Source: a virus
Strand: one strand, 5' to 3'
Length of the DNA stretch: 64,000 nucleotides
Virus record (IMG/VR): IMGVR_UViG_3300025163_000003
A model generated the notes under the pieces. The model was given only the letters and a program-made list of their open reading frames with translations, did no database searches and had not been told where the DNA came from. This document shows positions 1,225 to 26,440 of this stretch, in pieces (position 1 is the first letter of the stretch; every line of letters begins with the position of its first letter). The position numbers and the translations under genes are program-made.

Positions 1225-1606
1225 AATGACAGCATACAAAGGTTGGAATGCAAAGATACTGAAAGATGGTCAAGTGATAGGAACTGCTAGAGAAGTAAGA
1301 GTCACAGTAGACCATTCTCTTGAAAGATATTACATCCCATTCAGTAGGACACCTTATGAAATACGAGAAGGACAGATAAAGATAGACGGAACAATACGAA
1401 AGTTGTGGGTTGACAAGACTTATCTAACTTTGTTGGCAAATACTGGTACTCTAACTAATTTTGATCTTGAATTACAGGTGAACAATTTGCATCTCTATAT
1501 CTACAATTGTAAGTTTTCTAAAGGAGAGATCACTGTTCCTCAAGATGGTTGGATAACAGAAGACCTTGACTTTATTGGTTCTTCTATTGCTGTTGTAGAA
1601 ACTTAA
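1217..1606 (+). CDS. major tail (tube) protein-like, paralog 1
   Basis: Tandem paralog of 1653..2030; shared blocks MxxYKGWNAKIxKDG, TGTLxxFDL, CKFxxGxxxxPQDGWxxEDxDF. Sits directly upstream of the chaperone and tape-measure genes. Confidence 0.5.
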   Translation: MSKMTAYKGWNAKILKDGQVIGTAREVRVTVDHSLERYYIPFSRTPYEIREGQIKIDGTIRKLWVDKTYLTLLANTGTLTNFDLELQVNNLHLYIYNCKFSKGEITVPQDGWITEDLDFIGSSIAVVET

Positions 1607-1652: not shown

Positions 1653-2030
1653 ATGGCGACATATAAAGGTTGGAATGCTAAAATCTACAAGGATGGACTG
1701 TTGATAGGACACTGTGATTCAGCATCAGTAGAAATAGCCACTAACCTAGAAGCCTACTATGAAATAGGCTCCAGAGTACCAACTGATCTAGTTGCTGGTA
1801 ATCAAGAAGTCACTGGCTCCCTCTCAAAGGCTTGGGTCAACAAGGACTATCTACAACTAGTTGCTGGTACAGGAACACTCTCTGAATTTGATCTTTGCTT
1901 TGAAGTTGAAAATGGACCAAAAATCTATTGCTACGACTGTAAGTTTGAGAGAGGAGCAGTGGACATTCCACAAGACGGTTGGTTGAAAGAAGACTTTGAC
2001 TTCAGGGCAAAATCAGTAGCAGTCCTCTAG
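1653..2030 (+). CDS. major tail (tube) protein-like, paralog 2
   Basis: Same conserved blocks as 1217..1606; a gene duplication. Confidence 0.5.
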   Translation: MATYKGWNAKIYKDGLLIGHCDSASVEIATNLEAYYEIGSRVPTDLVAGNQEVTGSLSKAWVNKDYLQLVAGTGTLSEFDLCFEVENGPKIYCYDCKFERGAVDIPQDGWLKEDFDFRAKSVAVL

Positions 2031-2090
2031 AAGGATTAGTACCCTAAGTAAAGGGTTTAATCCGAATCTCCAAGAAGGAGGTGTTTCGGT

Positions 2091-2444
2091 ATGAGTGAAG
2101 AAATTAAAGAGTTTGCTGAAGCAGCTGACTTGCTAGCTCCAGATGAAACTAAAGAAGTGACTCTGAAGACTATAAAGAAGAAAGTCAAGATAAGACAACT
2201 GACATTTGGTGAAATAGCTGACATAGCTAAAGTATCACAGAATGATCTAGAACAGTATGTTTGGGTAGTCTACAAAGGACTAGTAGAACCAAAACTGAAA
2301 GTAGATCAAGTCAGAAAGATGGCTCCACTGACTCTAGTTGAACTAGCCTATCATATTCAGAAGTATTCAGGACTAGACCAAGACTCTATCAAGAAACTAG
2401 AAAATTTATTGAAAACAAATATCTCTTTACAGCCTTCCAAGTAA
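2091..2444 (+). CDS. tail assembly chaperone (gpG-like)
   Basis: Acidic 117-aa protein between the major tail protein and tape-measure genes. A slippery AAATTTA lies near its 3' end, with an open -1 frame downstream. Confidence 0.5.
   Translation: MSEEIKEFAEAADLLAPDETKEVTLKTIKKKVKIRQLTFGEIADIAKVSQNDLEQYVWVVYKGLVEPKLKVDQVRKMAPLTLVELAYHIQKYSGLDQDSIKKLENLLKTNISLQPSK
2402..2408 (+). other. candidate -1 programmed ribosomal frameshift heptamer A_AAT_TTA (XXXYYYZ)
   Basis: The 0-frame codons AAT TTA (N105, L106 of the chaperone) are preceded by A. The -1 frame is open from 2342 to the TAA at 2567-2569, so a slip here would give a ~159-aa G-T-like fusion. Confidence 0.4.
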
Positions 2445-2569
2445 TGTACTACATGAAGTGGACTTTAGAAGACTTAAAGAAACTGAGAATGCCTCAATAC
2501 ATTTGGATAGTGAAGTCACTAGAGAAACAGAAACGGATGGAGGCAAGAGCATTAAGAGGTAAAAAGTAA
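2444..2569 (+). CDS. 41-aa ORF in the -1 frame of the chaperone (putative T segment of a G/GT product; also has its own ATG in a TAATG overlap)
   Basis: ATG at 2444-2446 overlaps the chaperone stop. The ORF ends 1 nt before the tape-measure ATG at 2571 and is absent from the >=60-aa track. Confidence 0.4.
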   Translation: MYYMKWTLEDLKKLRMPQYIWIVKSLEKQKRMEARALRGKK

Positions 2570-2570
2570 G

Positions 2571-4946
2571 ATGACATTAAGATCAAATGTAATAGTAGGC
2601 TTTGAAGTTGCAGGAAGACCACTGCAATGGTTAGAGAAGACTCTTGACCGTTTTGGCATGAGAATGCGACTGACAGCCAGAGACCTACTAAGATTAGGTG
2701 GCACTATTTCCTCTTATTTCTCTAGAGTTGAATCAATTTGGTTAAGATTTCTACGTCTAGGAGATGTTTTTGCTGGAGGAATGGAAGAAGTAGAATGGGT
2801 ACTAGGAGATTTAGCTGATGTAGTGGGAGAAGCATTAGAACCTGCTCTTGAATTCTTAGCTGATATACTGGAAAATGTAGTAGACTATGCTGAAGAAAAT
2901 CCATGGTTACAATGGGCTATTATTCTACCACTTATAATTGCTTTAGTAGGTAAGTTAGCAGCTGGAATACTTAGGATGGTAGGTACTATCAAACTAGCTG
3001 CAGGAACATTGATGACATGGCACCGGGAAGCACTAGGCTTTGTTGATGGTATCAGATATGTCACTATAGCTTTGACAGAAGGAAAAGAAGCAGCTGATAA
3101 ATGGTTAGTTACCACAGGAAAACTTCAAAGAATGATAGCTGAAGAGAGAGACAGATTCTTCCAACTTAGAGAGGCATTAGCTGACAAGATACAAGTTACA
3201 CGACAGAACATCAGTTTTATTGACAAAGAAATAGCTTCAAGAAAACGAAATATAGCACAGATAGATCAACAGATAAATGCTCTTACAGGATTATTGGGAA
3301 CAAGTCCAGAAGTGGCTGATAGAATAGAAGAATTAACAGCAAAGAGAGAGAAAGAAAGTACAGCTATAGAGAAGTTACAAGCCAGAAGAGATAGAGAAGT
3401 CAAGAAGCTTTACAAGTATCAAGATCAATTGATTGAAGTTGAAGGAGAAATAGCTTCTATTAACAAGTTAACTAAAGAATATGCTAAACAGTCAAAGAAA
3501 CAAGAGAAAGGAGTCAGAGGAGTATTTACAACCGTAAAGAAAGGACTCAAACCAATGGCTAAGTGGGCTGCTATAGGAACTTCATTAATAGGACTTGCTT
3601 TTGGACTGTTTCTTGCATGGGAACCATTACAAGATCTATTTGAAGTTGTGACTGACATTCTATATGACTTACTTTCTCCATTAGAACCAATAATAGAAAG
3701 TTTTGCAGACTGGTTAGAAGAGAATCCTGATCTAGCTAAGGCACTTATACTCTTGATACTGCTCTTGCCTGCTGTATTTCTAGGAATGAAAGTTCTAGGA
3801 AAAGTGGGAGGAATACTAGGGAAAGTATTTGGTAAGTTAGGTGATATCTTAGGAAAAGTAACATCTCCATTTGGTAAACTGGAACAAGGAACATGGAAGA
3901 CATACTTGGCTGAAGCAGCATTGATAGGAGCAGTAGCTGCACTTATCTTTTCACTGGCTTACTTCTTCACTTCACTTATGAAGACTGGTGTGGGACTGTG
4001 GGAAGCAGTAGGTGCTCTGTCAGCTGTCTTTGCTGCTATCTTAGGATTCTTAGGTGGACTAGTGTTACTAGCTAGAGGACTAAGTACAGTATCTTCACAA
4101 GTGTGGATGGGAATAGCTGCTCTAGCTGCTCTAGTGGGAATAGTTACTCTTCTAACTTGGGCTTTCACTATGTTGCTTCAACCACTGACACAGATAGAAG
4201 GAGGAATAGCTGCATTGTGGAACTTAGTAGGAGCATTACTGGCACTGTTAGCTGGATGCACAATTTTGATAGCTGTTCTAGGTGCTCTAGGTCCTCTAGC
4301 TCTACTAGGAGCAATGGCATTCTTGATGTTAGGTGCAGCTGTCTTAATGGCAGGAACAGGATTCTATCTTGCTGGAATGGGTGCACAATTACTGGCTCAA
4401 GCAATAGGTTTCTTGATTGACAAATTGGTTGAAAGTATAAGTGTACTACCACAAGCTGTAGCACTCTTATTTGGTCTTGGTGCTGGACTTATGGCAGTTG
4501 GTATGGGAGGACTAGTAGCTCTTGCAGGACTAATGGCTGCATTCATGGGATTTACAATGTTCTCTACAGCAATTGCAATGACAGCAGGAGCTTTGTACAT
4601 GTTAGCAGGAGCAATTTCTGCTGTAGCTGCTGCTCTTAGAGCTGTACCTGACTGGGCAAGAGGAATAGTAGGAGGTTTCTTAGGTGGTCTTGCTTCTATA
4701 GGTAGAGCTATTGGAGGAATGTTTGGCATACCAGGAGCACAAAGAGGTGGTATAGTGGAAAGAGCAGGAATTGTCTATGTACATCCTGGAGAATTAATAG
4801 TACCAGCTAGAGTGACACCTGAAGTAGGAGGAGAATATCACAATACTTTCTTCATCACAGCTTACATCAGAGGAGAAGAAGACATTAGAGCATTAGCTGA
4901 AGAAATCAATAAATTGCAAGCAGCAAAGATAGGGAGGACTGTCTAA
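2571..4946 (+). CDS. tail tape-measure protein
   Basis: 791 aa. N-terminal coiled-coil region (e.g. REKESTAIEKLQARRDREVKKLYKYQDQLIEVEGEIASINKL) is followed by many Gly/Ala-rich hydrophobic segments. Canonical position after the chaperone pair. Confidence 0.8.
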   Translation: MTLRSNVIVGFEVAGRPLQWLEKTLDRFGMRMRLTARDLLRLGGTISSYFSRVESIWLRFLRLGDVFAGGMEEVEWVLGDLADVVGEALEPALEFLADILENVVDYAEENPWLQWAIILPLIIALVGKLAAGILRMVGTIKLAAGTLMTWHREALGFVDGIRYVTIALTEGKEAADKWLVTTGKLQRMIAEERDRFFQLREALADKIQVTRQNISFIDKEIASRKRNIAQIDQQINALTGLLGTSPEVADRIEELTAKREKESTAIEKLQARRDREVKKLYKYQDQLIEVEGEIASINKLTKEYAKQSKKQEKGVRGVFTTVKKGLKPMAKWAAIGTSLIGLAFGLFLAWEPLQDLFEVVTDILYDLLSPLEPIIESFADWLEENPDLAKALILLILLLPAVFLGMKVLGKVGGILGKVFGKLGDILGKVTSPFGKLEQGTWKTYLAEAALIGAVAALIFSLAYFFTSLMKTGVGLWEAVGALSAVFAAILGFLGGLVLLARGLSTVSSQVWMGIAALAALVGIVTLLTWAFTMLLQPLTQIEGGIAALWNLVGALLALLAGCTILIAVLGALGPLALLGAMAFLMLGAAVLMAGTGFYLAGMGAQLLAQAIGFLIDKLVESISVLPQAVALLFGLGAGLMAVGMGGLVALAGLMAAFMGFTMFSTAIAMTAGALYMLAGAISAVAAALRAVPDWARGIVGGFLGGLASIGRAIGGMFGIPGAQRGGIVERAGIVYVHPGELIVPARVTPEVGGEYHNTFFITAYIRGEEDIRALAEEINKLQAAKIGRTV

Positions 4947-5392
4947 TGGTAAAGTTAATAGAATACATTTGGGATCCAGACCAACATAAGTATGTTTCCT
5001 CAGGGAACACTTTCACTTTTGATCCTCCTCCTTCATCTATTCAAAAGAATGTCAAGTGTGAATGGCGTGTAAAGCACATTGGAAAGAATGAACTTAAGAA
5101 GTTCAAGTGGAGATACAGAAGAACTTCAGCTATTAAGTTGAGAGGAGTCTTACATTCAGAAAGTGACAGACTTACTCTAGAAACTTTAGGTACAAGAAAT
5201 GCTCTCTTCAAATTAGAGATAGACTTTCAAGAACCAAAGAGTGCAGGAGAAGACATTGGTTCTGCTTATCCTCCAACTGGAAGATATGGATACTTCATCA
5301 TAACAGAGATGGTCTTTCAAGGAGTACCAGGACAGAATGATATTCAATATGAAATAACACTAGAAAGAGTTAGAGAAGATCAGGTGGGCTAA
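4946..5392 (+). CDS. tail-tip/baseplate component (distal tail protein position)
   Basis: 148-aa ORF whose ATG overlaps the tape-measure stop (TAATG), immediately upstream of the fibre gene. Confidence 0.4.
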   Translation: MVKLIEYIWDPDQHKYVSSGNTFTFDPPPSSIQKNVKCEWRVKHIGKNELKKFKWRYRRTSAIKLRGVLHSESDRLTLETLGTRNALFKLEIDFQEPKSAGEDIGSAYPPTGRYGYFIITEMVFQGVPGQNDIQYEITLERVREDQVG

Positions 5393-13143: not shown

Positions 13144-14043
13144 TTAATTCCCTCCATCTTCAGGAGAGTTCACCTGATAGTGATCCTCTCCTGTTATGAC
13201 TTTCAACAGTCCCTCCTCCAAAGATATTTTAGGTTTCCAACCTAATTTTCTTATCTTGTTGTCTTCTTTTATTTCTTTCCTTTCCCAGTTGACAGGTGGT
13301 TCTGCATCAGTTAATATGACAGGTTTGAAACCATACATTAGTTGTCCTATTAGCAGTCCAAGTTCATAAATTGTCAGTTGATGATTTGTTCCTACCTCAT
13401 ATATTTCTCCCACTTCTCCTTTTTCCATGACTGTTATTAGAGCTTCAACTGCATCAGTGATGTATACAAAGTCTCTTACATCAAGTCCAGTTCCTCTGAT
13501 GTGTAACACATTTGGATTTCTTCTAAGTTTCTCTATGAAGTCAGGAATGACAAAACCTAGTCTCTGTCCTGGTCCATAAACATTCCAGAATCTGACAATA
13601 CTTGCATTCAACTTACGTTTCTTGACTGCTGAAAGAATGTATTTCTCTGCTGTTCTCTTGCTTATAGCATAATGAGAGTCAGGAGCATACTTTATTTGTG
13701 CAGTTGAAGTGAAGATCATCCTACAACGATATTTCACAGCCAAGTCTATTACATTCAATGTTCCAATCACATTTATTTTCAAGTCCCATCTAGGATTTAT
13801 AGTAGCTATTCTTGGTTCAGGATTAGCAGCAAGATGGAAGACAACGTCACAATCTTTCAACAGTGTATCCAACTGGAACAGATCTGTCACATCACAATAT
13901 TTCCAATATCTTCTAAGTTTTCCATCTCTGGGTTCTTTTATGTCAGCTATAATGACTTCATGTCCATCTTTCAAGAGTCTTCTAGCTAGATACGTTCCTA
14001 TGAAACCTGAACCACCAGTTATTACAATTTTCACTTCAGACAC
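13144..14043 (-). CDS. NAD-dependent nucleotide-sugar epimerase/dehydratase (extended SDR)
   Basis: Rossmann motif ITGGSGFIGTYLARRLL and catalytic YxxxK (YAISK). Confidence 0.85.
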   Translation of the reverse strand: MSEVKIVITGGSGFIGTYLARRLLKDGHEVIIADIKEPRDGKLRRYWKYCDVTDLFQLDTLLKDCDVVFHLAANPEPRIATINPRWDLKINVIGTLNVIDLAVKYRCRMIFTSTAQIKYAPDSHYAISKRTAEKYILSAVKKRKLNASIVRFWNVYGPGQRLGFVIPDFIEKLRRNPNVLHIRGTGLDVRDFVYITDAVEALITVMEKGEVGEIYEVGTNHQLTIYELGLLIGQLMYGFKPVILTDAEPPVNWERKEIKEDNKIRKLGWKPKISLEEGLLKVITGEDHYQVNSPEDGGN

Positions 14044-15134
14044 CTCTTCACTACATCTACTACTTCTTTAGCTTCTTCCTCTGTCAACTTGTTGTGTATA
14101 GGTAGAGAGACTATTCGTTTATAGACATATTCTGCATTATGGTGTTGTGTGTGCTGGAAACACCAAGACTTTTGTAGGTGTACTGGCTTCCATGTAATTT
14201 TAAGTTGAATTCCTTCTTTCAAAGCTTCTTTCACAATTTTCAGTTGTTTCTTTCTTGGTACTAGTATTCCAAATAAGAAATAAGGATGGACACATGGATG
14301 GTATTCTCTTGGAACACACTGATATTCCACTGTGTCACCTAATTCATCTTTATAAAGAGAAGCTATTTCTTGTCTGTGCCGTAGAAACTTAGATAATTTC
14401 TTCATCTGAACAACACCTATAGCAGCTGAAGTCTCTGGCATTCTAAAGTTGAACCCTATTCTTGAATGTTTGTATTCCCATGGTTGTTTCTTCTTGTAAT
14501 ATCCTTGGTTCACTATTGCTTTCATCTCTTCATAGAAGATCTTATTGTCAGTTAATATTGCACCTCCTTCTCCTGTGGTAACTATCTTAGCTGAGTGGAA
14601 AGAGAAAGTAGTTATATCAGCAATTGAACCTAACCGTTTGCCCTTGTACATTCCACCTAATCCTTCAGCTGCATCGTCCACCACTACTAATCCTTCTCTC
14701 ATCAAAAGATCATAGTCAGCAGATAGTCCTCCAACATCTGTTGCTACTATAACATTCTTCTCTTTCACTTTAGAGACTTCATATGGATCAATGTTCCAAG
14801 TATCTTTCTGGCAGTCAACTAAAGTGATCTTGTCAGCAAAAGGAACAGCAGCATTTACAGTTGCTATGAAAGTAAAAGTAGGAGCACACAATTTTAGTTC
14901 TCCCAGAAATTCTTTCAGGAAGAAATATACTGTCATCAATGCAGTAGTTCCATTGCAAGTAGCTATTGCATATTTTGCTCCTGTATATTGACAAAGTTTT
15001 CTTTCAAACTCTCTTACCAGTGGTCCATTTCCACCTATCCAAGTAGAATCTACAACTTCATTTAAGATTTCACGTTCTTCTTCACCAATATCTGGACAAG
15101 CCCAAGGTATTCTTATTTTGTATCTAGTACCCAT
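14031..15134 (-). CDS. DegT/DnrJ/EryC1/StrS-family PLP-dependent sugar aminotransferase
   Basis: Motif FSFHSAKIVTTGEGGAILTDN (PLP-lysine context) and overall ~367-aa size. Confidence 0.85.
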   Translation of the reverse strand: MGTRYKIRIPWACPDIGEEEREILNEVVDSTWIGGNGPLVREFERKLCQYTGAKYAIATCNGTTALMTVYFFLKEFLGELKLCAPTFTFIATVNAAVPFADKITLVDCQKDTWNIDPYEVSKVKEKNVIVATDVGGLSADYDLLMREGLVVVDDAAEGLGGMYKGKRLGSIADITTFSFHSAKIVTTGEGGAILTDNKIFYEEMKAIVNQGYYKKKQPWEYKHSRIGFNFRMPETSAAIGVVQMKKLSKFLRHRQEIASLYKDELGDTVEYQCVPREYHPCVHPYFLFGILVPRKKQLKIVKEALKEGIQLKITWKPVHLQKSWCFQHTQHHNAEYVYKRIVSLPIHNKLTEEEAKEVVDVVKRCLK

Positions 15135-15922
15135 TTGTCTCCTCTCCTCACATATCCTACTTTTTCAAGTTCTGACTCAGGAAGAACTCCTCTCTGAACA
15201 TAATATTCAACTGGAAGATGATATTCTCCCTCCTTAAGAACATTAGCATGATAAATTTTGATGTATGGAAGAGCATAGACTTTGTATCCTAGTTTTCTTG
15301 CATTCTTACAAAATTGTAGATGTGGAGCAGGATTCTCCCATCTGACTCTCTTGAAGACTTCTCCTTTTATCAGTATGAAAGTACCAACAGAATCAAGTTC
15401 AACAGGTTTCTTTTCATCTTTGAATGGTGGATTCAAGGAGTCATAGACTTTACCATTCAAGACTACTTTGTCAAATCTATACCCATTTATTCTGAAGACA
15501 TAAGTGTCAAAGAACTGTTTTGTTCCTTCAATGTAGACATAAGGAGCAACAATGTCTTTGTTCACTTTCACCATTTCCTTGAGGGTATTTCTCGGGACTT
15601 GAACAACATCAGTATCAGCAAACAGGACATACTCTTCATCTTTATAGAGTTCCTTGAATGCATTGCACAATTCAGCCACATACAATGAACTTCTAACTGG
15701 CATGTGAATAGGAAATTCTTCATACACTTCATACTTGTAGGAATGTTTCTTGTGAAAGTCAAGAATTATTTGTAAAGTGTTGTCCTTTGACTTTCCATAG
15801 ATCCATACCCAACGTAATTTAGTTTTAGGATAATCCAACTTATTCATAGTTGCTAGAAAACGAGGAAGATACTTGGCATCATTCTTGGTCAATAGACAAA
15901 TCATTATTCTAGGCCACTTCAT
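15113..15922 (-). CDS. GT-A fold glycosyltransferase (GT2-like)
   Basis: N-terminal MICLLTKNDAKYLPRFLATMNKLDYP and DxD-like FADTDVVQV; lies between the aminotransferase and the acetyltransferase. Confidence 0.5.
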   Translation of the reverse strand: MKWPRIMICLLTKNDAKYLPRFLATMNKLDYPKTKLRWVWIYGKSKDNTLQIILDFHKKHSYKYEVYEEFPIHMPVRSSLYVAELCNAFKELYKDEEYVLFADTDVVQVPRNTLKEMVKVNKDIVAPYVYIEGTKQFFDTYVFRINGYRFDKVVLNGKVYDSLNPPFKDEKKPVELDSVGTFILIKGEVFKRVRWENPAPHLQFCKNARKLGYKVYALPYIKIYHANVLKEGEYHLPVEYYVQRGVLPESELEKVGYVRRGDKWVLDTK

Positions 15923-16424
15923 TTCTTTTCACCTCTTTCAGAACAAGTTCCATTTCACATCTTGTTTTATTGTCTGGGAAGAAAGTAACTATCTTCCATC
16001 CAAATTTCTGATACAATTTCAAGGCAGCTTTATTTCTTGTGTCCACAGAAAGACATATTTTCTCTACTCCCAGTTCTCTTGCTATTCTTAAAATGTACTT
16101 GACATGTTCAGTCCCTATTTTTCTTCCTCTGTAAGATGGATGAACTACTATTCCAAATCTACAGTGTTTCTTGTTGGGATAGAATCTGTCCAAATATGCA
16201 AGAGAGATAATCTTGTCATCAAGTGTTCCAACAGTGAAGAGGACATTGTCAGTTGAAAGAATATTAGAGTAAGCAGTTTCTGCATCTCTTCCAAATCTAT
16301 ACCAATGTCTCCATGTTTCTTCATCCAGTTCATTCAGGAATTCTTTAAGTTTTCTCTTGTCTGTCAAACATGAGAATTTTACTCTTTCCATTGTTGAGTT
16401 GAAAGATGTTTGCAATATCTTCAC
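15909..16424 (-). CDS. GNAT-family N-acetyltransferase
   Basis: Acetyl-CoA-binding motif VHPSYRGRKIGTEHVKYILRIARELGVEKICLSV...ALKLYQKFGWK. Confidence 0.75.
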   Translation of the reverse strand: MKILQTSFNSTMERVKFSCLTDKRKLKEFLNELDEETWRHWYRFGRDAETAYSNILSTDNVLFTVGTLDDKIISLAYLDRFYPNKKHCRFGIVVHPSYRGRKIGTEHVKYILRIARELGVEKICLSVDTRNKAALKLYQKFGWKIVTFFPDNKTRCEMELVLKEVKRNEVA

Positions 16425-16426
16425 CT

Positions 16427-17704
16427 TTATGCTATTCTCTTTAGTTTTTTCTTAGAAGTCCTGGGTATTTCATCTGCTATTTCTTTCAAGAAAGGTATCC
16501 AGTGTTTATCTATGGCTACATCCCATGTCTGTCTTCTTGCATATTGCAGTCCTCTCTTTGCATAGTATTTTCTCTTGTTAGGACTCTGATATGCTTCAGT
16601 CATAGCATCAGCAAATCCTTCAGGGTCAGGAATTGAAGACAAACCATTCAACTGAGTGTAGACATAAGTTGCAGGTTTCACCATCCAACCTGCTCTTCCA
16701 TTGTCCACTCTTTCTATCAGTGCAGAGAAACCATTTACAATAACAGGTATTCCACATGCTTGAGCTTCTAGAACTGGCAGACAGAATCCTTCACGTCTTG
16801 AGGGAAGAACAAAGACATCCATACAGTTGTAAACTTTAGCCATTGAACTCTCTGGCAGTCCTAACACTGAAGCAGTATAGACATCATTCCATATTATCCA
16901 CTTGTCAACATTCTCTTGTTTAGCAAGTTCTATCAGATTTCTTCCTCTCTCATTTGTTGGATCTGTATGTATGAAAAGTCTTGCATCTTTAACTGCATTT
17001 GGATTCTGTTCCAAGAAAATTCTGAAAGCCCTGAACAGACAGTCCCATCCCTTTCTAGGTTCATCATCATTGTTTGCAGCTACAACACCAAACAAGAAGA
17101 GATCTTTAGGAATACCAAAATGTTGTCTACATTTCAACTTGTCCATAGGTTTGAAGATATTTATGTCAACACCATGTGGGATATAAGTAGCATCTATTCC
17201 TGCTTTCTTCAACACTTGAACTCCATGTTTACTAGCTACTGCCACCCATTTATAGCTTCTAAATACAGACAACCATTTCTCTGGATAAGAATCATGATCA
17301 ACTGGAGAATAACAGATAGAATTTTCTATCAATTCTGCAAACTTTCTAGACACCCAGAAATCAGCACACCAAACAGCAACATCACAATTTAATCTCTTAT
17401 AATGGTCTCTAACAGTATAGAAACCAAGAGGATCATCAGATCTTTTCTGAACAGGCAATACAAACAGACCTTTGAAGTTGACTATTCCAGGAGTCTGAAG
17501 TCCATAGTAAGCTGAACAGATAACTGAGAATCCTCTGTTGAAAAGACCAAGAGCATTGTAATAAGTTACTTTCCCATAGCCACTACGGATATATGGAGCC
17601 ACTGAATGCCACAGAATCCTGAGATCTCTCCAGTCAACTTTCTCTTTCTTCTGTTCAGGACCTTTTAGTTCTATTTCTAGTCTCGATTCTTTCATGTATC
17701 TCAC
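16427..17704 (-). CDS. GT-B fold glycosyltransferase family 1 (GT4-like)
   Basis: Signature FVLPSRREGFCLPVLEAQACGIPVI (E-x7-E). Confidence 0.8.
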   Translation of the reverse strand: MRYMKESRLEIELKGPEQKKEKVDWRDLRILWHSVAPYIRSGYGKVTYYNALGLFNRGFSVICSAYYGLQTPGIVNFKGLFVLPVQKRSDDPLGFYTVRDHYKRLNCDVAVWCADFWVSRKFAELIENSICYSPVDHDSYPEKWLSVFRSYKWVAVASKHGVQVLKKAGIDATYIPHGVDINIFKPMDKLKCRQHFGIPKDLFLFGVVAANNDDEPRKGWDCLFRAFRIFLEQNPNAVKDARLFIHTDPTNERGRNLIELAKQENVDKWIIWNDVYTASVLGLPESSMAKVYNCMDVFVLPSRREGFCLPVLEAQACGIPVIVNGFSALIERVDNGRAGWMVKPATYVYTQLNGLSSIPDPEGFADAMTEAYQSPNKRKYYAKRGLQYARRQTWDVAIDKHWIPFLKEIADEIPRTSKKKLKRIA

Positions 17705-17954
17705 CTGATGGAATCTTTAATCCTTTATCTATCTTCTTAAGTTCATAAGATGCTATTTCAGTGACATATCCACCTTGATGCTTCATTATCCAGACTTCAA
17801 CTGGAAATTCTTGTCCTAGTTCATACTTGAAGTCAACAGTGAAGTTCTTGTGAGATTCATAACAACGTAGTGCTTCTTCTTTAGTCTTGTATATTTCTCC
17901 ACATCCCTTACATCTCCAACCTTCCACTCTTTCTATTTTGTCTCTTTCTTCCAT
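17655..17954 (-). CDS. small Zn-ribbon protein
   Basis: CKGCGEIYK...C pattern; 99 aa. Confidence 0.35.
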   Translation of the reverse strand: MEERDKIERVEGWRCKGCGEIYKTKEEALRCYESHKNFTVDFKYELGQEFPVEVWIMKHQGGYVTEIASYELKKIDKGLKIPSGEIHERIETRNRTKRS

Positions 17955-18280
17955 TCAAACAGACCTCCTTTTCTATATGTCTTGATTACTTCTATCTGAA
18001 AAGATTCAAGACTTATTTCACCTTTGTCCACACTAAATGTTACTCTGTTTGTCTTTCCTTCAACTATTGTTCCACAGAATGGACAGAAAAGAGTTATGTC
18101 TGAACCCATGTCATATATTCTAGCATGTTTCAATTCCATGAAAGCTTTACAGTTGGGACAACAAGGAAGAACAGGCTGTCCCAACACTGCTTTCAATATT
18201 GACTCTTTGTCTGAAGGAAACAATTCTTTGGGAATGTCAATTATTCCTACAAACTTGAAGTTGAAGAATTCAGAGGACAT
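17933..18280 (-). CDS. small Zn-ribbon protein
   Basis: CCPNCKAF...CPFCG four-Cys pattern; 115 aa. Confidence 0.4.
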   Translation of the reverse strand: MSSEFFNFKFVGIIDIPKELFPSDKESILKAVLGQPVLPCCPNCKAFMELKHARIYDMGSDITLFCPFCGTIVEGKTNRVTFSVDKGEISLESFQIEVIKTYRKGGLFEWKKETK

Positions 18281-19310
18281 TTTCCAACTCCTTCACAGCT
18301 TTATCCCATGTCCAACGTTTAGCATTTTCAATTGCTTTTCTCTTTGTCTTTTTGTATGCTTGTTCTACTTCCATCAAGAATCTCATCTTTCTATACAAGT
18401 CTGGTACAGATATCAGACCAATTCTTCCAACATTTGTTTCCAGGAATTCATTGACTTTGACATACAATGCTCCATTGCCAAGTACTTCTCTACTTGCTCC
18501 ATGTTCAGAAGCAATTACTGGTACACCACATGCTTGAGCTTCCAATGCTGGTAGACCAAATGATTCTGTGCCAGGAGAAATGTACACATCCAAAGTTCTC
18601 AAGAAGTCTCTCACTCCTTCTCTAGATAGTGGAATACCATGTAACTTTTGTTCAATGAACACTGGAGAAATCTTAAGTCTTCTTGACAGTTCCAGTAGGT
18701 CATAATGTCCTTCTGCTGATGCAGCTATTGCTAGTATTCCTTTTCCTAGTCTCTTGTAAGCATAAAATACTCTAGGCAATTGCTTTCTAATGTCATTTAG
18801 ACCAATATATCCAAATCTGAATTCTCTCCACATTTCTTGTGTAGGAGTAAAGAAAGAAGTGTCAACTCCATGTGGCACTACTTCTGCTTTAATCCCTGCC
18901 TTCCTCAGAATTCTAGCAGAATACTTGGAAGGTGTAATCACTTTGTCAAATTTCTTTATCAGTTCTTGATAGTGAAGTGGAACATCTTCACCTTCATATG
19001 GCAAATACAAAATCTTCTCCATCCTGAAGTTCTTTATCTTGTCTCCTATTTTCTCTAGGAAGTAACAAGAATGGAACATAATTAATCTGTCAGCATCAGC
19101 TAATTTCTTGGCATAGTAATCCAATTGATAATTCTTCTTGAGTGGATAAACAGAGACATGTTCATTTAAAGTGATAGGCAGTCCTTCATAACCAAGTGAG
19201 AGACAGAAGAATTTGTGTTGCATTCTCATTGTCATTTCATAAGTCACAGTACCAAAAGAAGTACCCAGTAAAGGATAATCTGACAACCAGATAATCTTCA
19301 ACTCTTCCAC
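18270..19310 (-). CDS. GT-B fold glycosyltransferase family 1
   Basis: Signature SFGLPALEAQACGVPVIASEHG. Confidence 0.8.
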   Translation of the reverse strand: MEELKIIWLSDYPLLGTSFGTVTYEMTMRMQHKFFCLSLGYEGLPITLNEHVSVYPLKKNYQLDYYAKKLADADRLIMFHSCYFLEKIGDKIKNFRMEKILYLPYEGEDVPLHYQELIKKFDKVITPSKYSARILRKAGIKAEVVPHGVDTSFFTPTQEMWREFRFGYIGLNDIRKQLPRVFYAYKRLGKGILAIAASAEGHYDLLELSRRLKISPVFIEQKLHGIPLSREGVRDFLRTLDVYISPGTESFGLPALEAQACGVPVIASEHGASREVLGNGALYVKVNEFLETNVGRIGLISVPDLYRKMRFLMEVEQAYKKTKRKAIENAKRWTWDKAVKELENVL

Positions 19311-19753
19311 CTCTTGATTATCTTACAAAGTTTTCCTGTCTTCAAGTTGAGAGTTCCTGGAAGTATAAACTTAGCCATTTCATCCTTCACTATTTTCACT
19401 TTATATGGCAATGTGAACTTCTTAAGTTCTTCAATAGAACCCAGGAAGAGTTCAAGGAACAAGACATAGTCTTTACCGTCAAACACTAAAGTTGATCTCA
19501 CTTTCTTCTTGTGATATTCTTCAGCAATTTGTTCTAAGATTTCCTTCTTTCCTTTCAACATCACTACATCAATTATAGCTGTTCCTGGAACAGGCTTTCC
19601 ATTGTACCATGTTGTGAAAGAATAGAGTCCTATCTCACAAGACTTGTTGTTTTGAATAGCTTCTTTCACTCTCATCTTCAACTCTTCTATACTCAGTATA
19701 ATTCTATTCTCTTTGAATCCTACTCTAGGAAATCTTTTGAGCATCTTTCTCAC
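19298..19753 (-). CDS. hypothetical protein
   Basis: 151-aa ORF translationally coupled between PolB and the GT1 gene. Confidence 0.35.
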   Translation of the reverse strand: MRKMLKRFPRVGFKENRIILSIEELKMRVKEAIQNNKSCEIGLYSFTTWYNGKPVPGTAIIDVVMLKGKKEILEQIAEEYHKKKVRSTLVFDGKDYVLFLELFLGSIEELKKFTLPYKVKIVKDEMAKFILPGTLNLKTGKLCKIIKRWKS

Positions 19754-22274
19754 CTAGAAAGATGTCAAGTGTGACACTTTTCTTCTTTCGTCTTCTCTTC
19801 CTCTTTATCTTCAACTCTTCTTTCAAGTTCAGTGAATCCCAAGTGATACCTAGTGACTCCAACAGCTTCTCTATTTTAGGTCGTACTGTCTTCTCAAGCA
19901 TTTTTGGATAGTCTATTTTTATCCATTCAGGAAGAGTAATTGTATTGTCAAAAGCTATTACGTCAATTTCCTCCAATACAGTTGGAGGTTTATTTTCAGT
20001 ATAGACATAAGCTCTTAGTGGTTTAGAACCATAGTCATAGTTTGTTCCTAGATATCTATTGGCAAGTTCTGCTGCTTTCTTCTGTATTGAATTGACAGCA
20101 TATGCTTTTAATGGTTTGGACACTGCTGATGGAACACCTATTACTTCTTTAGGCAATGTGTCATACTTGTTTAACTCCTGTTCAACTTCTTTCTTGATCT
20201 CTTCTGCACTCTTGCCACTCATCATCATATCAAGCACTTTCTCTTGAAGTTGTTTTGCAAATGCTGATGCATCTGACCTTTTAATTTCTAGTCCTTTAGT
20301 TTCTTTAGTCAGTGAACCATCTTCATGGACAATATATCCAAAGTATCTTTTCTTGGTGATGAAGAAGATTCTTCTGTAGATTTTCTCAAGTTTGATTCTT
20401 ATGATCTGTTCTCCTTCATAGCCAAATTCTTTAAGTTTCTCTGGTAGTCCTCTGTTGATCTCTTCTTCCACCATAGTACCAATTTTCTTTGCTTCTTCAA
20501 AACTACTAGCATTAGTTGCAATGAATATGCTGTCAGTGTCACCATAAAGAGCTTCATAACCTAATGACTTAGCAACTTCTTCTGCAAAATGAAGCATTAT
20601 CTTACCCATCACTGTAACAGCTTGAGCACACTCTCTTGAAGCTTGTCTTGATCTGTAAGCTAGTCCTCCATAGACTGCATTAGCCAATGTCTTGTAGACA
20701 TTCTGTTTGACATCATACACTTTAGCTTTCTCAGGTTCTTTCTTCATGAGTTCCTTGTATTTCATTCTCAACTTAATGAAGTCATCTAGAATAGTAGGGA
20801 ACAGTCCTCTTGGTTCTTTCCTGAATCTGAACACTTCTCCTGTCTCAGGATCAGTGAACTTGTAACAGTCTTCACTTTCTATTGGCAACCAAGAGAACTG
20901 GTCAATGTTAAATGTCCTAATGATGGAAGGATAAAGTGAAGCATAGTCCAATTGTACTACCCATTCATGCATTCCTTTCTTGGGTGGAAAGACATATGCT
21001 CCTCTAAAGTCCTTCACTTTCTCATGTTTAGAAGGCAGTGGATCTTTACTTCTTCTCAGACATTCTACATCTATCATTCGTTGAGTAGAGAATGCATCTT
21101 CAAGACGTACACCTACTACTTTTCTCAGTTCATCCAAGAAGGAAATCAATTCATTTTCTTTGTCTAGATCAACACACAACTCAACATCTCTTTTGTTGTA
21201 TTCCAATACTAGACTTGGATTTGTCTTCCAGAGATAAACTATGTTGGTAGAAACAGGCTTTCCTTTCCAAGTCAACTTTGTCTTTCCAGACTTCAAGAAA
21301 ACTTTGGAGATATATTCAAGACTGTAAGACTCCAACTGTTTTCGTGATATCATTCGGATCAAGTCTAACAAGTCAATTATGTTTCTTCCAGGAATCTTAA
21401 TTGTCTTCTTGGAAAGATCAACTCCTCTTATTCTATACTTCTTTGTTCTTGGTCTACCAACACCATATCCTTTGTCTGATAAACTTGACAGTTTGTCAAA
21501 CTCTTTAAGGACACCTCTTCTCTTAGCCTCATATCTCATACACAACAAGTCAAAGTCAATGTTATATCCAGTTAGAACGTCAGGGTCTCTGTCAACAATA
21601 TAGTTAACAAATCGTCTCAACATTTCTCCTACAGTTGAACATCTTATTAACACCCAGTCCTTCTGTGACTTTATTGGCACTGGATTCTTTCTAACATACC
21701 AAGTATAATAGACTCTTTCATAACTGTCAAAGGCAGAGATACAGATTATCTTGTCATTCTTCCTAAGTTTCCCTTCATGAACAGGTTTGTCACTTAAGAC
21801 TTCTATGTCCAAGTAGACAATTCTGAGAGGAATCTGTAAGTCTTCATCTATTGGCTGTAAACCTTTAGGTGTTATCTCTACACTGCTTCTTATTTTAGAG
21901 TCTATCAGAAATCTTAGTACAAATGGAACATCTGCTTCAAAAGTTCTATCTTCTCCATAGTAGTTGTACAGAATCTGTCTTAGTTGTCTGACTTGATCAG
22001 GGGTATAAGTCCACACTTTCCACAGTACACCCACATTGTCAAAAGAAACAAGTTCTTTCTTTGCTATTATGTCAAAAACAAGATGGAAGTTCTTAGGTAC
22101 AAAGAAGTATGGTTTAAAGTTGGAAATCTTACATCTTTTTCTCTTCAGGTCTTCTGTTCTAACCCATAAGTAGATGACTGGATGATACTTCCTAGGATGT
22201 CCTTCACTCAGTCTTCTATCTTTAACTTCTTTCTTGTATTCTATTGCTGTCCATATTCCTTTCATTTTACACAA
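19725..22274 (-). CDS. polB: family B DNA polymerase with 3'-5' proofreading exonuclease
   Basis: Exo I VYLDIEV, Exo II YNIDFDLLCM, Exo III YNKRDVELCVDL. Pol motif A DYASLYPSII, motif B KTLANAVYGG, motif C LYGDTDSIFI. Confidence 0.95.
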   Translation of the reverse strand: MCKMKGIWTAIEYKKEVKDRRLSEGHPRKYHPVIYLWVRTEDLKRKRCKISNFKPYFFVPKNFHLVFDIIAKKELVSFDNVGVLWKVWTYTPDQVRQLRQILYNYYGEDRTFEADVPFVLRFLIDSKIRSSVEITPKGLQPIDEDLQIPLRIVYLDIEVLSDKPVHEGKLRKNDKIICISAFDSYERVYYTWYVRKNPVPIKSQKDWVLIRCSTVGEMLRRFVNYIVDRDPDVLTGYNIDFDLLCMRYEAKRRGVLKEFDKLSSLSDKGYGVGRPRTKKYRIRGVDLSKKTIKIPGRNIIDLLDLIRMISRKQLESYSLEYISKVFLKSGKTKLTWKGKPVSTNIVYLWKTNPSLVLEYNKRDVELCVDLDKENELISFLDELRKVVGVRLEDAFSTQRMIDVECLRRSKDPLPSKHEKVKDFRGAYVFPPKKGMHEWVVQLDYASLYPSIIRTFNIDQFSWLPIESEDCYKFTDPETGEVFRFRKEPRGLFPTILDDFIKLRMKYKELMKKEPEKAKVYDVKQNVYKTLANAVYGGLAYRSRQASRECAQAVTVMGKIMLHFAEEVAKSLGYEALYGDTDSIFIATNASSFEEAKKIGTMVEEEINRGLPEKLKEFGYEGEQIIRIKLEKIYRRIFFITKKRYFGYIVHEDGSLTKETKGLEIKRSDASAFAKQLQEKVLDMMMSGKSAEEIKKEVEQELNKYDTLPKEVIGVPSAVSKPLKAYAVNSIQKKAAELANRYLGTNYDYGSKPLRAYVYTENKPPTVLEEIDVIAFDNTITLPEWIKIDYPKMLEKTVRPKIEKLLESLGITWDSLNLKEELKIKRKRRRKKKSVTLDIFLGEKDAQKIS

Positions 22275-22557
22275 ACTCCAGTCTTTTCAATTCAGGTTCT
22301 TTCTTGGAAGGATTAATCCATATCAACAACAAAACAACTCTTAGTCGTAACAGTGCACCATAAAAGCCACATGGACAAGTAACTTCCACCGCGTTTACAG
22401 TGGGAGGAAGAATCGTTTTATGTTCTTTACCACAAAAGGGACATTCCCAAGAAATTCCTTTAGCACTTGGAGTTACTGTCCTTGGTGTCCTTATTGTTGG
22501 TATTTGATGACGTGCTCTTGTTCTCAAACTCGGAAAGCGTCTTATCTTTGACACCAT
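22267..22557 (-). CDS. small Zn-ribbon protein (start uncertain; overlaps the XPF 3' end)
   Basis: CPFCGKEHK...CPCG; basic N-terminus. The predicted start overlaps the last ~30 codons of 22460..23269. Confidence 0.3.
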   Translation of the reverse strand: MVSKIRRFPSLRTRARHQIPTIRTPRTVTPSAKGISWECPFCGKEHKTILPPTVNAVEVTCPCGFYGALLRLRVVLLLIWINPSKKEPELKRLEFV

Positions 22558-23423: not shown

Positions 23424-23566
23424 TTACTTCTCCTCTCTGAGACGACAGATCTTGCACCATTCCACTAGTGATTCTGGCTTCAGTTTCCACTCTGTCCTGA
23501 TGGGGCATTTCTTTCTCTTGTCCCATACACAAGGGTATGACTTCTTTTCTGTCATAGGATACCTCC

Positions 23567-24493: not shown

Positions 24494-24494
24494 C

Positions 24495-25337: not shown

Positions 25338-25338
25338 C

Positions 25339-26397: not shown

Positions 26398-26440
26398 TCT
26401 TCCTATTCCCTCCTTTTACTTTTAAACATGATTTCTCTTC

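What the first reader, a model, noticed from the sequence alone, without database searches (positions are those of the whole stretch)
2342..2569. Putative -1 programmed frameshift producing a G-T-type tail chaperone fusion
The chaperone-position gene 2091..2444 carries the slippery heptamer A_AAT_TTA at 2402-2408, in the correct register (0-frame codons AAT TTA). The -1 frame is open from 2342 through a 41-codon ORF (2444..2569) that ends 1 nt before the tape-measure ATG. This is the conserved G/GT arrangement of siphoviruses, here in an apparently archaeal virus. The short ORF also has its own ATG in a TAATG overlap, so independent translation is an alternative.
Basis: seen in the sequence. 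Interest (0 to 1): 0.55.

Follow-up and report, generated by a model that had tools for sequence, protein, structure and literature searches.

The report
Conserved frameshift in tail chaperone gene
A small gene just before the tail-length ruler gene of this probably archaeal tailed virus very likely makes a second, longer protein when ribosomes slip back one base at A_AAT_TTA; this is the classic tail-assembly frameshift of long-tailed phages, here in an undescribed group of sediment viruses.

Summary
Gene 2091..2444 encodes 117 aa. It carries A_AAT_TTA at 2402-2408 in the right register. The -1 frame is open from 2342 to 2569, and the tape-measure ATG is at 2571.

- I collected 30 distinct related loci, forming about 18 clusters at 80% aa identity. 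Every complete locus has an in-register A_AAT_TTA (A_AAT_TTT in three) at the same alignment column.
- Asn is AAT in 30/30 and Leu is TTA in 27/27. The preceding base is A in 30/30, even where that codon's amino acid changes. Every other conserved multi-codon column uses 2-6 codons.
- The -1 frame is always open into a conserved ~53-aa extension.
- The 12-14 codons upstream of the extension's ATG evolve as protein in the -1 frame. In most loci they lie after the chaperone's stop and have no usable start codon or ribosome-binding site.
- Distant relatives keep A_AAT_TTA or have A_AAA_AAC at the same place.

No downstream RNA structure is conserved. The host is probably archaeal, but this is not proven.

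This is a new member of a known kind. G/GT frameshifting is already predicted for haloarchaeal siphoviruses. Nothing has been shown at the protein level.

The parts
1226..1606 (+). Tail tube protein, paralog 1 (126 aa from the ATG at 1226; the mechanical ORF starts at GTG 1217)
   Evidence: Pfam Phage_tube_2 E=1.6e-9. PHROG 290 tail protein. 47% identical to paralog 2.
1653..2030 (+). Tail tube protein, paralog 2 (125 aa)
   Evidence: Pfam Phage_tube_2 E=1.7e-9. The same gene sits directly upstream of the chaperone gene in related loci.
2031..2090 (+). Intergenic region between the tube gene and G. It holds a hairpin (GGAUUAGUACCCU-AAGUAA-AGGGUUUAAUCC) and the strong Shine-Dalgarno AAGGAGGTG of the chaperone gene.
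   Evidence: Fold -14.6 kcal/mol, z=-2.4. An ACCC-AAGUAA-GGGU hairpin recurs in relatives. The AAGGAGGTG-type SD is present in nearly all relatives.
2091..2444 (+). G-like tail assembly chaperone, 0-frame product (117 aa, 13.4 kDa)
   Evidence: Position between tube and tape measure. PHROG 344 'tail assembly chaperone' is hit by 8 of 19 family members, best E=4.9e-6. The AlphaFold model (pLDDT 72.6) matches annotated tail assembly chaperones in BFVD (E 1e-4 to 1e-2, TM about 0.55).
2402..2408 (+). Slippery heptamer A_AAT_TTA (P-site codon AAT, A-site codon TTA)
   Evidence: In register. Invariant in all relatives: AAT 30/30, TTA 27/27 plus 3 TTT, preceding base A 30/30. Distant relatives have A_AAT_TTA or A_AAA_AAC at the same place.
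2408..2443 (+). -1 frame linker (IENKYLFTAFQV). It is reachable only by frameshifting and overlaps the dispensable 0-frame tail LKTNISLQPSK.
   Evidence: Conserved as L-x-T-x-F-Q-V, with 2-6 synonymous codons per column and third-position wobble in the -1 frame. In 14 of 21 loci it lies after G's stop. 15 of 30 loci have no ATG/GTG/TTG upstream of the T ATG in that frame.
2444..2569 (+). T segment: the 41-codon ORF in the -1 frame (MYYMKWTLEDLKKLRMPQYIWIVKSLEKQKRMEARALRGKK; basic, pI 10.2). It forms the C-terminal part of the 159-aa G-T fusion.
   Evidence: Conserved in all relatives. No Shine-Dalgarno at a usable distance. Ends 1 nt before the tape-measure ATG.
2571..4946 (+). Tape measure protein (791 aa: coiled-coil N-terminal part, long hydrophobic Gly/Ala-rich part)
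   Evidence: Weak hits to several PHROG tape-measure families. The orthologous genes of relatives hit only tape-measure families (phrog_28 E=1.9e-8, phrog_4200 E=2.3e-6, phrog_1533 E=1.4e-5).

Best explanation
Gene 2091..2444 is the tail assembly chaperone ('G') of a long-tailed virus. Most ribosomes translate it to its stop and make the 117-aa G protein.

A minority slip back one base when tRNA-Asn is on AAU in the P site and tRNA-Leu is on UUA in the A site. They re-pair on AAA and UUU, resume at AUU (2408-2410), and read the -1 frame to 2569. The result is a 159-aa G-T fusion in which the last 11 residues of G are replaced by a basic 53-residue T segment.

By analogy with phage lambda, the shared G part would coat the tape-measure protein encoded immediately downstream. 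The rare T part would recruit the tail-tube protein, so that the slip frequency sets the G:GT ratio.

What is shown here:
- the anatomy;
- purifying selection on the heptamer at the nucleotide level;
- purifying selection on the -1 frame peptide upstream of any start codon.

What is inferred: that the slip occurs on the host's ribosomes, its efficiency, and the roles of G and T in assembly.
For: 1. Anatomy. The heptamer is in register and the -1 frame is open from 2342 to 2569. The gene order is tube, tube, G, T, tape measure.

2. The heptamer is invariant across 30 distinct loci. These form 10 clusters at 70% aa identity and 18 at 80%.
- Asn is AAT in 30/30 and Leu is TTA in 27/27; the other three have TTT.
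- Every other conserved multi-codon column uses 2-6 codons; Leu columns use 4-6.
- The base before AAT is A in 30/30, although that codon encodes Glu, Ala, Arg, Gln or Lys.
- With the window's codon usage (GAA 74%, AAT 61%, TTA 19%), the chance per lineage is 0.084. That gives about 2e-10 for nine further independent lineages.

3. The -1 frame is open from the heptamer to a conserved T stop in every complete locus. Stops occur at 9.3% per codon in the -1 frame of the window's genes. Only 24% of 14-codon stretches there are open.

4. The linker upstream of the T ATG is selected as protein in the -1 frame.
- The Leu column uses 6 codons; the Thr, Phe, Gln and Val columns vary only at third positions.
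- In 14 of 21 loci the G stop lies only 5 codons after the heptamer, so the linker is outside G.
- 15 of 30 loci have no canonical start upstream of the T ATG in that frame. In most of the others the only one is the GTG codon immediately before it.

5. G always has an AAGGAGGTG-type ribosome-binding site. T never has one at a usable distance.

6. Distant relatives, detected by HMM at E 1e-7 to 1e-19, keep a slip site at the same column.
- L067 and L068 have A_AAT_TTA. L066 and L069 have A_AAA_AAC.
- All four are open in the -1 frame into a ~60-aa basic peptide that ends at the tape-measure gene.
- L068 has no ATG at the start of T.

7. The G model resembles annotated tail assembly chaperones, and family members hit PHROG 344.
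Against: - There is no protein evidence. All support is comparative.
- No conserved RNA structure lies downstream of the heptamer. The consensus fold is -0.76 kcal/mol with no compensatory pairs, and the window fold has z=-1.1. Efficiency therefore cannot be argued from a stimulator. Many phage G/GT sites also lack one.
- The ATG of the 41-aa ORF is conserved in 30/30 close relatives, so some independent or re-initiated translation of T is not excluded.
- The T profile shows no detectable homology to lambda gpT (hhalign probability 0.2%; no Pfam Phage_tail_T hit).
- The best match among solved structures is weak (HK97 chaperone 2ob9, E=0.64).
- Whether A_AAU_UUA is shift-prone on this host's ribosomes is unknown, and the host itself is unidentified.
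Confidence: 0.88

Rival explanations
1. There is no frameshift. The 41-aa ORF 2444..2569 is a separate small gene, translated from its own conserved ATG by coupling or re-initiation at the TAATG overlap. The heptamer is incidental.
For: The ATG is conserved in 30/30 close relatives. TAATG-type overlaps occur in the window, L007 and L010. Gene callers annotated a 41/42-aa ORF at this position in several contigs.
Against: - No Shine-Dalgarno lies at a usable distance, whereas G always has a strong one.
- In most lineages G stops about 18 nt before the ATG, so there is no overlap.
- This reading does not explain the invariant synonymous sites of the heptamer.
- It does not explain the always-open -1 frame between heptamer and ATG.
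- It does not explain protein-level selection on the linker upstream of the ATG.
- The distant relative L068 has no ATG there at all.
Confidence: 0.05
2. The invariant AAAATTTA is a DNA or RNA signal rather than a slip site. For example, it could be the TATA box of an internal archaeal promoter about 40 nt upstream of the T ATG, producing a short-leader transcript for T and the tape measure.
For: The motif is A/T-rich and TATA-like. It is conserved at the nucleotide level independently of the amino acid of the preceding codon. It lies about 36-40 nt upstream of the ATG.
Against: - A promoter would not require the -1 frame to stay open, nor to be conserved as protein from the motif to the ATG.
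- It would not require the motif to keep exact codon register.
- It would not be replaceable by A_AAA_AAC, which is not TATA-like, at the same column in L066 and L069.
- The sigma-70 scan found nothing there. Archaeal promoters were not scanned.
Confidence: 0.03
3. The heptamer is conserved only because the G protein needs the motif L-E-N-L-L, and the open -1 frame is a by-product of sequence similarity among relatives.
For: L-E-N-L-L is invariant in the eight closest proteins.
Against: - Selection on amino acids would leave synonymous sites free. The Leu codons on either side use CTA/TTG/CTT/CTC and TTG/TTA/CTG, while the heptamer's codons never vary.
- The residue before Asn changes (E, A, R, Q, K) but its third base stays A.
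- The Leu becomes Phe (TTT) in three lineages, which keeps the slippery pattern.
Confidence: 0.02
4. The change of frame is made by RNA polymerase slipping on the A or T run (transcriptional slippage), not by the ribosome.
For: The site contains the short homopolymer runs A4 and T3.
Against: From established knowledge, productive transcriptional slippage needs runs of about 6-9 or more identical bases. Here the runs are 3-5 bases in all relatives. The conserved pattern is the two-codon X_XXY_YYZ register.
Confidence: 0.02

Closest known systems
Phage lambda G / G-T tail assembly chaperones and the conserved frameshift of long-tailed dsDNA phages (Levin, Hendrix & Casjens 1993; Xu, Hendrix & Duda 2004, 2013, 2014; summarised in PMC5009743)
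   Same: Two overlapping reading frames lie between the major tail (tube) gene and the tape-measure gene. [quoted passage not shown] The second frame is in -1, has no ribosome-binding site of its own, and ends at the tape-measure start. The sizes are small (G 117 aa, fusion 159 aa). No strong RNA stimulator is present.
   Different: The heptamer is A_AAT_TTA, not lambda's G_GGA_AAG. The T segment is short (53 aa, against about 140 aa for the lambda T frame) and shows no detectable homology to lambda gpT. G matches no Pfam chaperone family. The virus has two tandem tube paralogs. Function and G:GT ratio are untested.
Predicted G-T -1 frameshifts of haloarchaeal siphoviruses HVTV-1 and HCTV-1, -2, -5 (Pietila et al. 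2013; Sencilo et al. 2013; as cited in PMC5009743)
   Same: A tail-chaperone frameshift in tailed viruses of archaea, predicted from sequence. The window's family-B DNA polymerase finds these haloviruses as its best deposited viral relatives, at 25-28% identity.
   Different: [quoted passage not shown] This virus is low-GC (37%). Two related contigs are from Guaymas Basin sediment MAGs. Its host is not a haloarchaeon, judging by composition.
Rous sarcoma virus gag-pol -1 frameshift site A_AAU_UUA (Jacks et al. 1988; heptamer recalled from memory, not checked with the tools)
   Same: The slippery heptamer is identical, with simultaneous slippage of tRNA-Asn and tRNA-Leu.
   Different: The retroviral site depends on a downstream pseudoknot (PMC5009743). 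Here no conserved downstream structure exists. The translation system (eukaryotic versus prokaryotic) and the proteins are unrelated.

Membership tests
G/GT tail assembly chaperone pair with programmed -1 frameshift (long-tailed Caudoviricetes) | Two overlapping ORFs located between the major tail/tube gene and the tape-measure gene | tested here: met
   Tube genes 1226..1606 and 1653..2030 hit Pfam Phage_tube_2 at E about 1e-9. G is 2091..2444, T is 2444..2569, and the 791-aa tape-measure candidate is 2571..4946. Orthologous downstream genes hit only tape-measure PHROGs.
G/GT tail assembly chaperone pair with programmed -1 frameshift (long-tailed Caudoviricetes) | [quoted passage not shown] | tested here: met
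   A_AAT_TTA lies at 2402-2408, 12 codons before the stop. Such heptamers occur at 1.2 per 1000 codons in the window's other genes.
G/GT tail assembly chaperone pair with programmed -1 frameshift (long-tailed Caudoviricetes) | Second ORF in the -1 frame, open from the slip site, without its own ribosome-binding site | tested here: met
   The -1 frame is open 2342..2569. No SD lies before the T ATG in any of 30 loci, while G has AAGGAGGTG.
G/GT tail assembly chaperone pair with programmed -1 frameshift (long-tailed Caudoviricetes) | Slip site and frame relationship conserved among diverged relatives, with the heptamer under selection at the nucleotide level | tested here: met
   38 of 38 complete loci (30 distinct) keep the site. 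Its synonymous positions are invariant, against 2-6 codons at other conserved columns. Distant relatives have A_AAT_TTA or A_AAA_AAC at the same column.
G/GT tail assembly chaperone pair with programmed -1 frameshift (long-tailed Caudoviricetes) | First ORF has the sequence or fold of known tail assembly chaperones | tested here: inconclusive
   PHROG 344 is hit by 8 of 19 members, best E=4.9e-6, but the window protein alone reaches only E=2e-3. BFVD Foldseek hits are annotated chaperones (E 1e-4 to 1e-2, TM about 0.55) from a model of pLDDT 72.6. The top PDB hit, HK97 chaperone 2ob9, is not significant (E=0.64). No Pfam family matches.
G/GT tail assembly chaperone pair with programmed -1 frameshift (long-tailed Caudoviricetes) | A fusion protein is actually made at a low, fixed ratio, is needed for tail assembly and is absent from virions | not testable with these tools
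   Needs expression, proteomics or genetics.
Lambda gpT family (Pfam PF06223 Phage_tail_T) | Sequence homology of the -1 frame segment to gpT | tested here: not met
   hhalign of the T profile against lambda T gives probability 0.2%. PF06223 hits lambda T (E=2e-14) but none of the T segments tested. The T segment here is not a member of that family. This does not bear on the mechanism.
-1 frameshift sites with a downstream stimulatory stem-loop or pseudoknot (dnaX / retroviral type) | Conserved RNA structure 5-9 nt downstream of the heptamer | tested here: not met
   RNAalifold on 22 sequences gives -0.76 kcal/mol with no compensatory pairs. The only helix lies about 35 nt downstream. The window's own fold has z=-1.1.
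Tailed viruses of archaea | Host is an archaeon | tested here: inconclusive
   - PolB is closest to Thermococcales polymerases among solved structures (E about 1e-51) and to haloarchaeal viruses among deposited viruses.
- The full-length type IB topoisomerase is closest to archaeal Caldiarchaeum CsTOP1 (6z01, E=7e-111, against 1e-69 for human TOP1).
- An ERCC4-HhH nuclease and a Rad51/RadA-like ATPase are present.
- The only genome-collection hits are two ~3-kb contigs binned into an Archaeoglobales MAG and a Shapirobacteria MAG, which is not reliable.
- There are no tRNAs. No CRISPR-spacer test was possible.

The most novel reading that the evidence does not exclude
A_AAU_UUA, with no RNA stimulator, is a dedicated shift site for the ribosomes and tRNAs of a non-halophilic archaeal host. 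The type IB topoisomerase hints at a TACK-group host. The site has been held absolutely fixed across a whole clade of large sediment viruses, with contigs up to 172 kb. In the same viruses the universally conserved ATG would also let some free T peptide be made, giving three products (G, G-T, T) rather than the canonical two. That would provide a natural, sequence-minimal reporter for -1 frameshifting in an archaeal lineage where almost nothing is known about recoding.
Probability: 0.2. Interest if true: 0.5.

Novelty: new member of a known kind. Interest (0 to 1): 0.35.

Why it matters
For annotation, the finding shows that automatic gene calls here are wrong or incomplete. The T frame was missed in many related contigs or called in the wrong frame, and the 159-aa fusion is never annotated.

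For biology, it extends the G/GT tail-assembly frameshift to an uncharacterised clade of large, low-GC, probably archaeal siphoviruses; at least two related contigs come from Guaymas Basin sediment. This is one of the most conserved recoding events in viruses. The heptamer here is not the one reported for haloarchaeal viruses, and there is no RNA stimulator.

The comparative signal is unusually clean: it combines an invariant heptamer, a swap to A_AAA_AAC in distant relatives, and a coding linker with no start codon. The locus is therefore a good candidate for testing -1 frameshifting on archaeal ribosomes. It does not reveal a new mechanism.

Tried and rejected
- **Close-relative scan of IMG/VR with the single G protein:** nothing found. 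An alignment query was needed.
- **tblastn of the fusion against 50,697 deposited phage genomes:** no match. No annotated precedent could be read off.
- **Downstream stimulatory RNA:** none, by RNAalifold and single-sequence folding.
- **Upstream SD-like stimulator:** GGGAGG lies 5 nt upstream of the heptamer in some lineages (L010, L029), but not in the window or most others. Rejected as a conserved element.
- **Homology of the T segment:** I thought I saw a shared motif with lambda gpT and with the T frames of distant relatives. hhalign gives probabilities of 0.2-0.7% and Pfam gives nothing. Rejected.
- **PDB fold search for G:** not significant.
- **Pfam on 19 fusion sequences:** only noise.
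- **Host from the genome collection:** two ~3-kb contigs in conflicting MAG bins, one archaeal and one bacterial. Not usable.
- **Sigma-70 promoter and intrinsic terminator scan around the site:** nothing beyond the number expected from shuffles.
- **Motif CCAAGWAAGG:** it is shared by the G leader hairpin and the G/T junction. It is enriched in the window (25 matches against 8.9 expected) but scattered through coding sequence. Not pursued.
- **Pattern scans with very diverse alignments or single distant proteins:** failed or found nothing. DNA of distant relatives was obtained through a second protein search instead.
- **Literature search for the RSV heptamer string:** nothing usable. That comparison rests on memory.
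Full report
**1. The observation**

- ORF 2091..2444 encodes 117 aa ending ...KKLENLLKTNISLQPSK.
- Its codons GAA (2400-2402), AAT (2403-2405) and TTA (2406-2408) place A_AAT_TTA at 2402-2408 in the X_XXY_YYZ register.
- The -1 frame has a stop at 2339-2341 and is then open to the TAA at 2567-2569.
- That frame contains the 41-codon ORF 2444..2569, whose ATG overlaps the stop of the first gene (TAATG).
- The next gene (791 aa) starts at 2571.
- A -1 slip would give a 159-aa, 18.8-kDa protein reading ...KKLENL|IENKYLFTAFQVMYYMKW....

Such heptamers are rare here. There are 17 in-register X_XXY_YYZ sites in 14,200 codons of the window's other long ORFs, and none of them is A_AAT_TTA. Stop codons occur at 9.3% per codon in the -1 frame of those ORFs. 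Only about 1% of 55-codon stretches are open in that frame.

**2. Context**

Upstream lie two tandem paralogous tail-tube genes, 1226..1606 and 1653..2030. They hit Pfam Phage_tube_2 at E about 1e-9 and are 47% identical to each other.

The 791-aa downstream protein has a coiled-coil part and a long hydrophobic part. It hits several PHROG tape-measure families weakly. Its orthologues in related contigs hit only tape-measure families, with phrog_28 at E=1.9e-8 and phrog_4200 at E=2.3e-6.

The 117-aa protein hits PHROG 344, 'tail assembly chaperone', only weakly on its own (E=2e-3). Eight of 19 family members hit it, with a best E of 4.9e-6.

An AlphaFold model (pLDDT 72.6) finds annotated tail assembly chaperones of bacterial and archaeal viruses in BFVD, at E 1e-4 to 1e-2 and TM about 0.55. 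Examples are Halobacterium phage ChaoS9, Bacillus phage Gemini and several actinophages. The top PDB hit is the HK97 chaperone, but it is not significant. Position therefore identifies the gene firmly. Fold and sequence support it moderately.

**3. Relatives**

A protein search with the hypothetical fusion found seven G homologues at 50-93% identity. Contig look-ups and alignment-based scans of IMG/VR, JGI metagenomes and GTDB genomes followed. Together they gave 38 complete loci, of which 30 are distinct. These form 10 clusters at 70% and 18 clusters at 80% amino-acid identity. Some of the contigs are 113-172 kb long.

Every complete locus has an in-register A_AAT_TTA at the same alignment column. 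In three lineages it is A_AAT_TTT.

**4. Selection on the heptamer itself**

I built a codon alignment of the 30 fusion sequences.
- Every conserved amino-acid column with more than one possible codon uses 2-6 codons. Leu columns use 4-6.
- The only exceptions are the two heptamer codons. Asn is AAT in 30/30. Leu is TTA in 27/27, and the other three sequences have TTT (Phe), which keeps the slippery pattern.
- The base before AAT is A in 30/30, although that codon encodes Glu, Ala, Arg, Gln or Lys (GAA, GCA, CGA, CAA, AAA).
- The Leu codons on either side vary freely: CTA/TTG/CTT/CTC before and TTG/TTA/CTG/CTC after.

With the window's codon usage (GAA 74%, AAT 61%, TTA 19%), the chance of this triplet of choices is 0.084 per lineage. 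For nine further lineages treated as independent, that is about 2e-10. The figure is rough because lineages share ancestry. The scrambled synonymous sites elsewhere show that ancestry alone does not explain it.

**5. Selection on the -1 frame upstream of the ATG**

The -1 frame is open from the heptamer to the stop of a conserved extension of about 53 aa in every complete locus. The consensus is I-x-N-K-x-L-x-T-x-F-Q-V-M-Y-H-M-H-W-T-L...A-x-R-R-R. By chance a 14-codon stretch is open in that frame 24% of the time.

The decisive point is the 12-14 codon linker between the heptamer and the ATG of the small ORF.
- It is conserved as L-x-T-x-F-Q-V.
- Its Leu column uses six codons.
- Its Thr, Phe, Gln and Val columns vary almost only at third positions of the -1 frame.
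- In 14 of 21 loci with an ungapped linker, the G stop comes only five codons after the heptamer. Most of the linker there lies outside G.
- In 15 of 30 loci there is no ATG, GTG or TTG in the -1 frame upstream of the T ATG. In most of the others the only candidate is the GTG codon directly before it.

This stretch is therefore translated in the -1 frame and can be reached only from the 0 frame. In addition, G has a strong AAGGAGGTG-type ribosome-binding site in nearly all loci, while T never has one at a usable distance.

**6. Depth of conservation**

A profile of the G family finds only 94 cluster representatives at E<=1e-3 among 1.84 billion proteins. Most of the distant ones keep x-N-L or x-N-F at the same column. 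I obtained DNA for four of them.
- L067 (AGA AAT TTA) and L068 (CGA AAT TTA) have A_AAT_TTA.
- L066 and L069 have GCA AAA AAC TTG, that is A_AAA_AAC. The same Asn codon now sits in the A site.
- In all four the -1 frame runs into a basic peptide of about 60 aa that ends at the tape-measure gene.
- L068 has no ATG at the start of that peptide.

Replacing one canonical heptamer by another at a fixed position is the classic signature of a programmed frameshift. It also argues against the motif being a DNA signal such as a TATA box.

**7. What was not found**

- No RNA structure is conserved downstream. RNAalifold gives -0.76 kcal/mol with no compensatory pairs. The window's own fold has z=-1.1.
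- An SD-like GGGAGG lies upstream of the heptamer in some lineages only.
- The T segment has no detectable homology to lambda gpT or Pfam Phage_tail_T.
- No deposited phage genome resembles the G-T protein.

**8. Mechanism proposed**

Most ribosomes finish G (13.4 kDa). A minority undergo tandem -1 slippage. tRNA-Asn moves from AAU to AAA and tRNA-Leu from UUA to UUU; in each case the first two codon positions still pair after the shift. They then continue in the -1 frame to make G-T (18.8 kDa).

AAU is read by the GUU anticodon through a G-U wobble. From general knowledge, this weakens the pre-slip pairing, which may be why AAT is never replaced by AAC.

By analogy with lambda (PMC5009743), G would coat the tape measure and the rare T end would recruit tube protein. 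That step is inferred, not tested.

**9. Rivals**

- Independent translation of the 41-aa ORF alone cannot explain sections 4, 5 and 6. As an additional minor route it stays open, because the ATG is conserved in 30/30 close relatives.
- An internal promoter or another nucleic-acid signal does not explain the open, protein-constrained -1 frame or the swap to A_AAA_AAC.
- Amino-acid selection on L-E-N-L-L does not explain the fixed synonymous sites.
- Transcriptional slippage is unlikely because the homopolymer runs are only 3-5 bases long.

**10. Host and novelty**

The window is 37% GC. It also encodes the following.
- A family-B DNA polymerase. It is closest to Thermococcales enzymes among solved structures and to haloarchaeal tailed viruses among deposited viral genomes, at 25-28% identity.
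- A full-length 'eukaryotic-type' topoisomerase IB. Its best solved relative is archaeal Caldiarchaeum CsTOP1 (6z01, E=7e-111, against 1e-69 for human TOP1).
- An ERCC4-HhH nuclease and a Rad51/RadA-like protein.

An archaeal host is therefore likely but unproven. The only genome-collection hits are two ~3-kb Guaymas contigs in conflicting MAG bins.

[quoted passage not shown] This is a new, very well supported member of a known kind in an undescribed viral clade. It is not a new mechanism.

**11. Verdict**

Interest is moderate to low (0.35). The arrangement is textbook. The value lies in correct annotation, in the unusually clean comparative evidence, and in a simple candidate site for studying frameshifting on archaeal ribosomes.

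Noticed in passing
window 1226-1606 and 1653-2030 (+): Two tandem paralogous tail-tube genes of 126 and 125 aa, 47% identical, both Pfam Phage_tube_2. The pair is also present in the L002-L006 lineage. L007, L009 and L012 have a single 127-aa tube gene before the chaperone.
   Followed up: partly
window 2031-2090 (+); also L002 1605-1660, L010 4940-4990, L030 935-990: The tube-chaperone intergenic region holds a conserved small hairpin, ACCC-AAGUAA-GGGU (window fold -14.6 kcal/mol, z=-2.4). In several loci a second hairpin, CUCC-AAGWA-GGAG, pairs with the chaperone's Shine-Dalgarno. These may attenuate or process the transcript and mask the ribosome-binding site, setting chaperone levels below tube levels. 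The junction sequence TTCCAAGTAATG at 2433-2446 resembles the same CCAAGTAA motif.
   Followed up: partly
window 43583-45253 (-): Full-length 'eukaryotic-type' topoisomerase IB (Topoisom_I_N + Topoisom_I + Topo_C_assoc) in a tailed-virus genome. The best solved relative is archaeal Caldiarchaeum subterraneum CsTOP1 (6z01, E=7e-111), far ahead of human TOP1.
   Followed up: partly
window 41848-43092 (-): A complete glutamine synthetase (Gln-synt_N + Gln-synt_C, E=4e-89) encoded among the viral genes. It may be an auxiliary metabolic gene.
   Followed up: no
window 13144-19310 (-): A sugar-modification cluster: NAD-dependent epimerase/dehydratase, DegT/DnrJ aminotransferase, an Anp1/GT2-like transferase and two GT4 glycosyltransferases. 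This suggests virion or host-surface glycosylation.
   Followed up: no
window 19725-29817 (-): An archaeal-looking replication and repair module: family-B DNA polymerase, ERCC4-HhH (XPF-like) nuclease, Rad51/RadA-like ATPase, ParB-like protein and class I/II-type ribonucleotide reductase with an ATP-cone. Further on are an RNA ligase (51992-53251) and a MoxR-like AAA protein (49678-51342).
   Followed up: partly
window about 12000: The coding strand switches from + (structural genes, 1-11.6 kb) to - (the rest of the window). GC skew and AT skew change sign at the same place. No tRNA genes occur in 64 kb.
   Followed up: no
L002 1998-2004; L017 3201-3207, L032/L034 3297-3303: Some lineages carry a second in-register slippery heptamer next to the conserved one. 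L002 has G_GGA_AAA 9 nt downstream. The A_AAT_TTT lineages have T_TTT_TTC overlapping it. Both would lead into the same open -1 frame.
   Followed up: no
L002 2051-2176, L006 1712-1837; L003, L004, L011, L012, L013: Public gene calls are inconsistent at this locus. In L002 and L006 the caller annotated a 41-aa ORF in a different frame from the conserved T frame. In five other contigs nothing is called between the chaperone and the tape measure.
   Followed up: yes
L050-L064 (marine IMG/VR contigs), e.g. L051 2019-2600: Very distant chaperone-like genes end ...AEDFKS*. The downstream T-like frame is in +1 rather than -1, and there is no in-register heptamer near the end. This could be a +1 or -2 recoding variant. 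L049, a GC-rich relative, has a canonical A_AAA_AAC -1 site two codons before its stop.
   Followed up: no
L067 498-1973: In a distant relative (55.9-kb contig, 29% GC) a 491-aa gene upstream of the tail genes carries weak intein-splicing and LAGLIDADG hits.
   Followed up: no
L010 about 5315-5325, L029 about 3291-3301: An SD-like GGGAGG lies 5 nt upstream of the heptamer (codons M-G-R) in several lineages, but not in the window. It may modulate slippage locally but is not a conserved feature.
   Followed up: no
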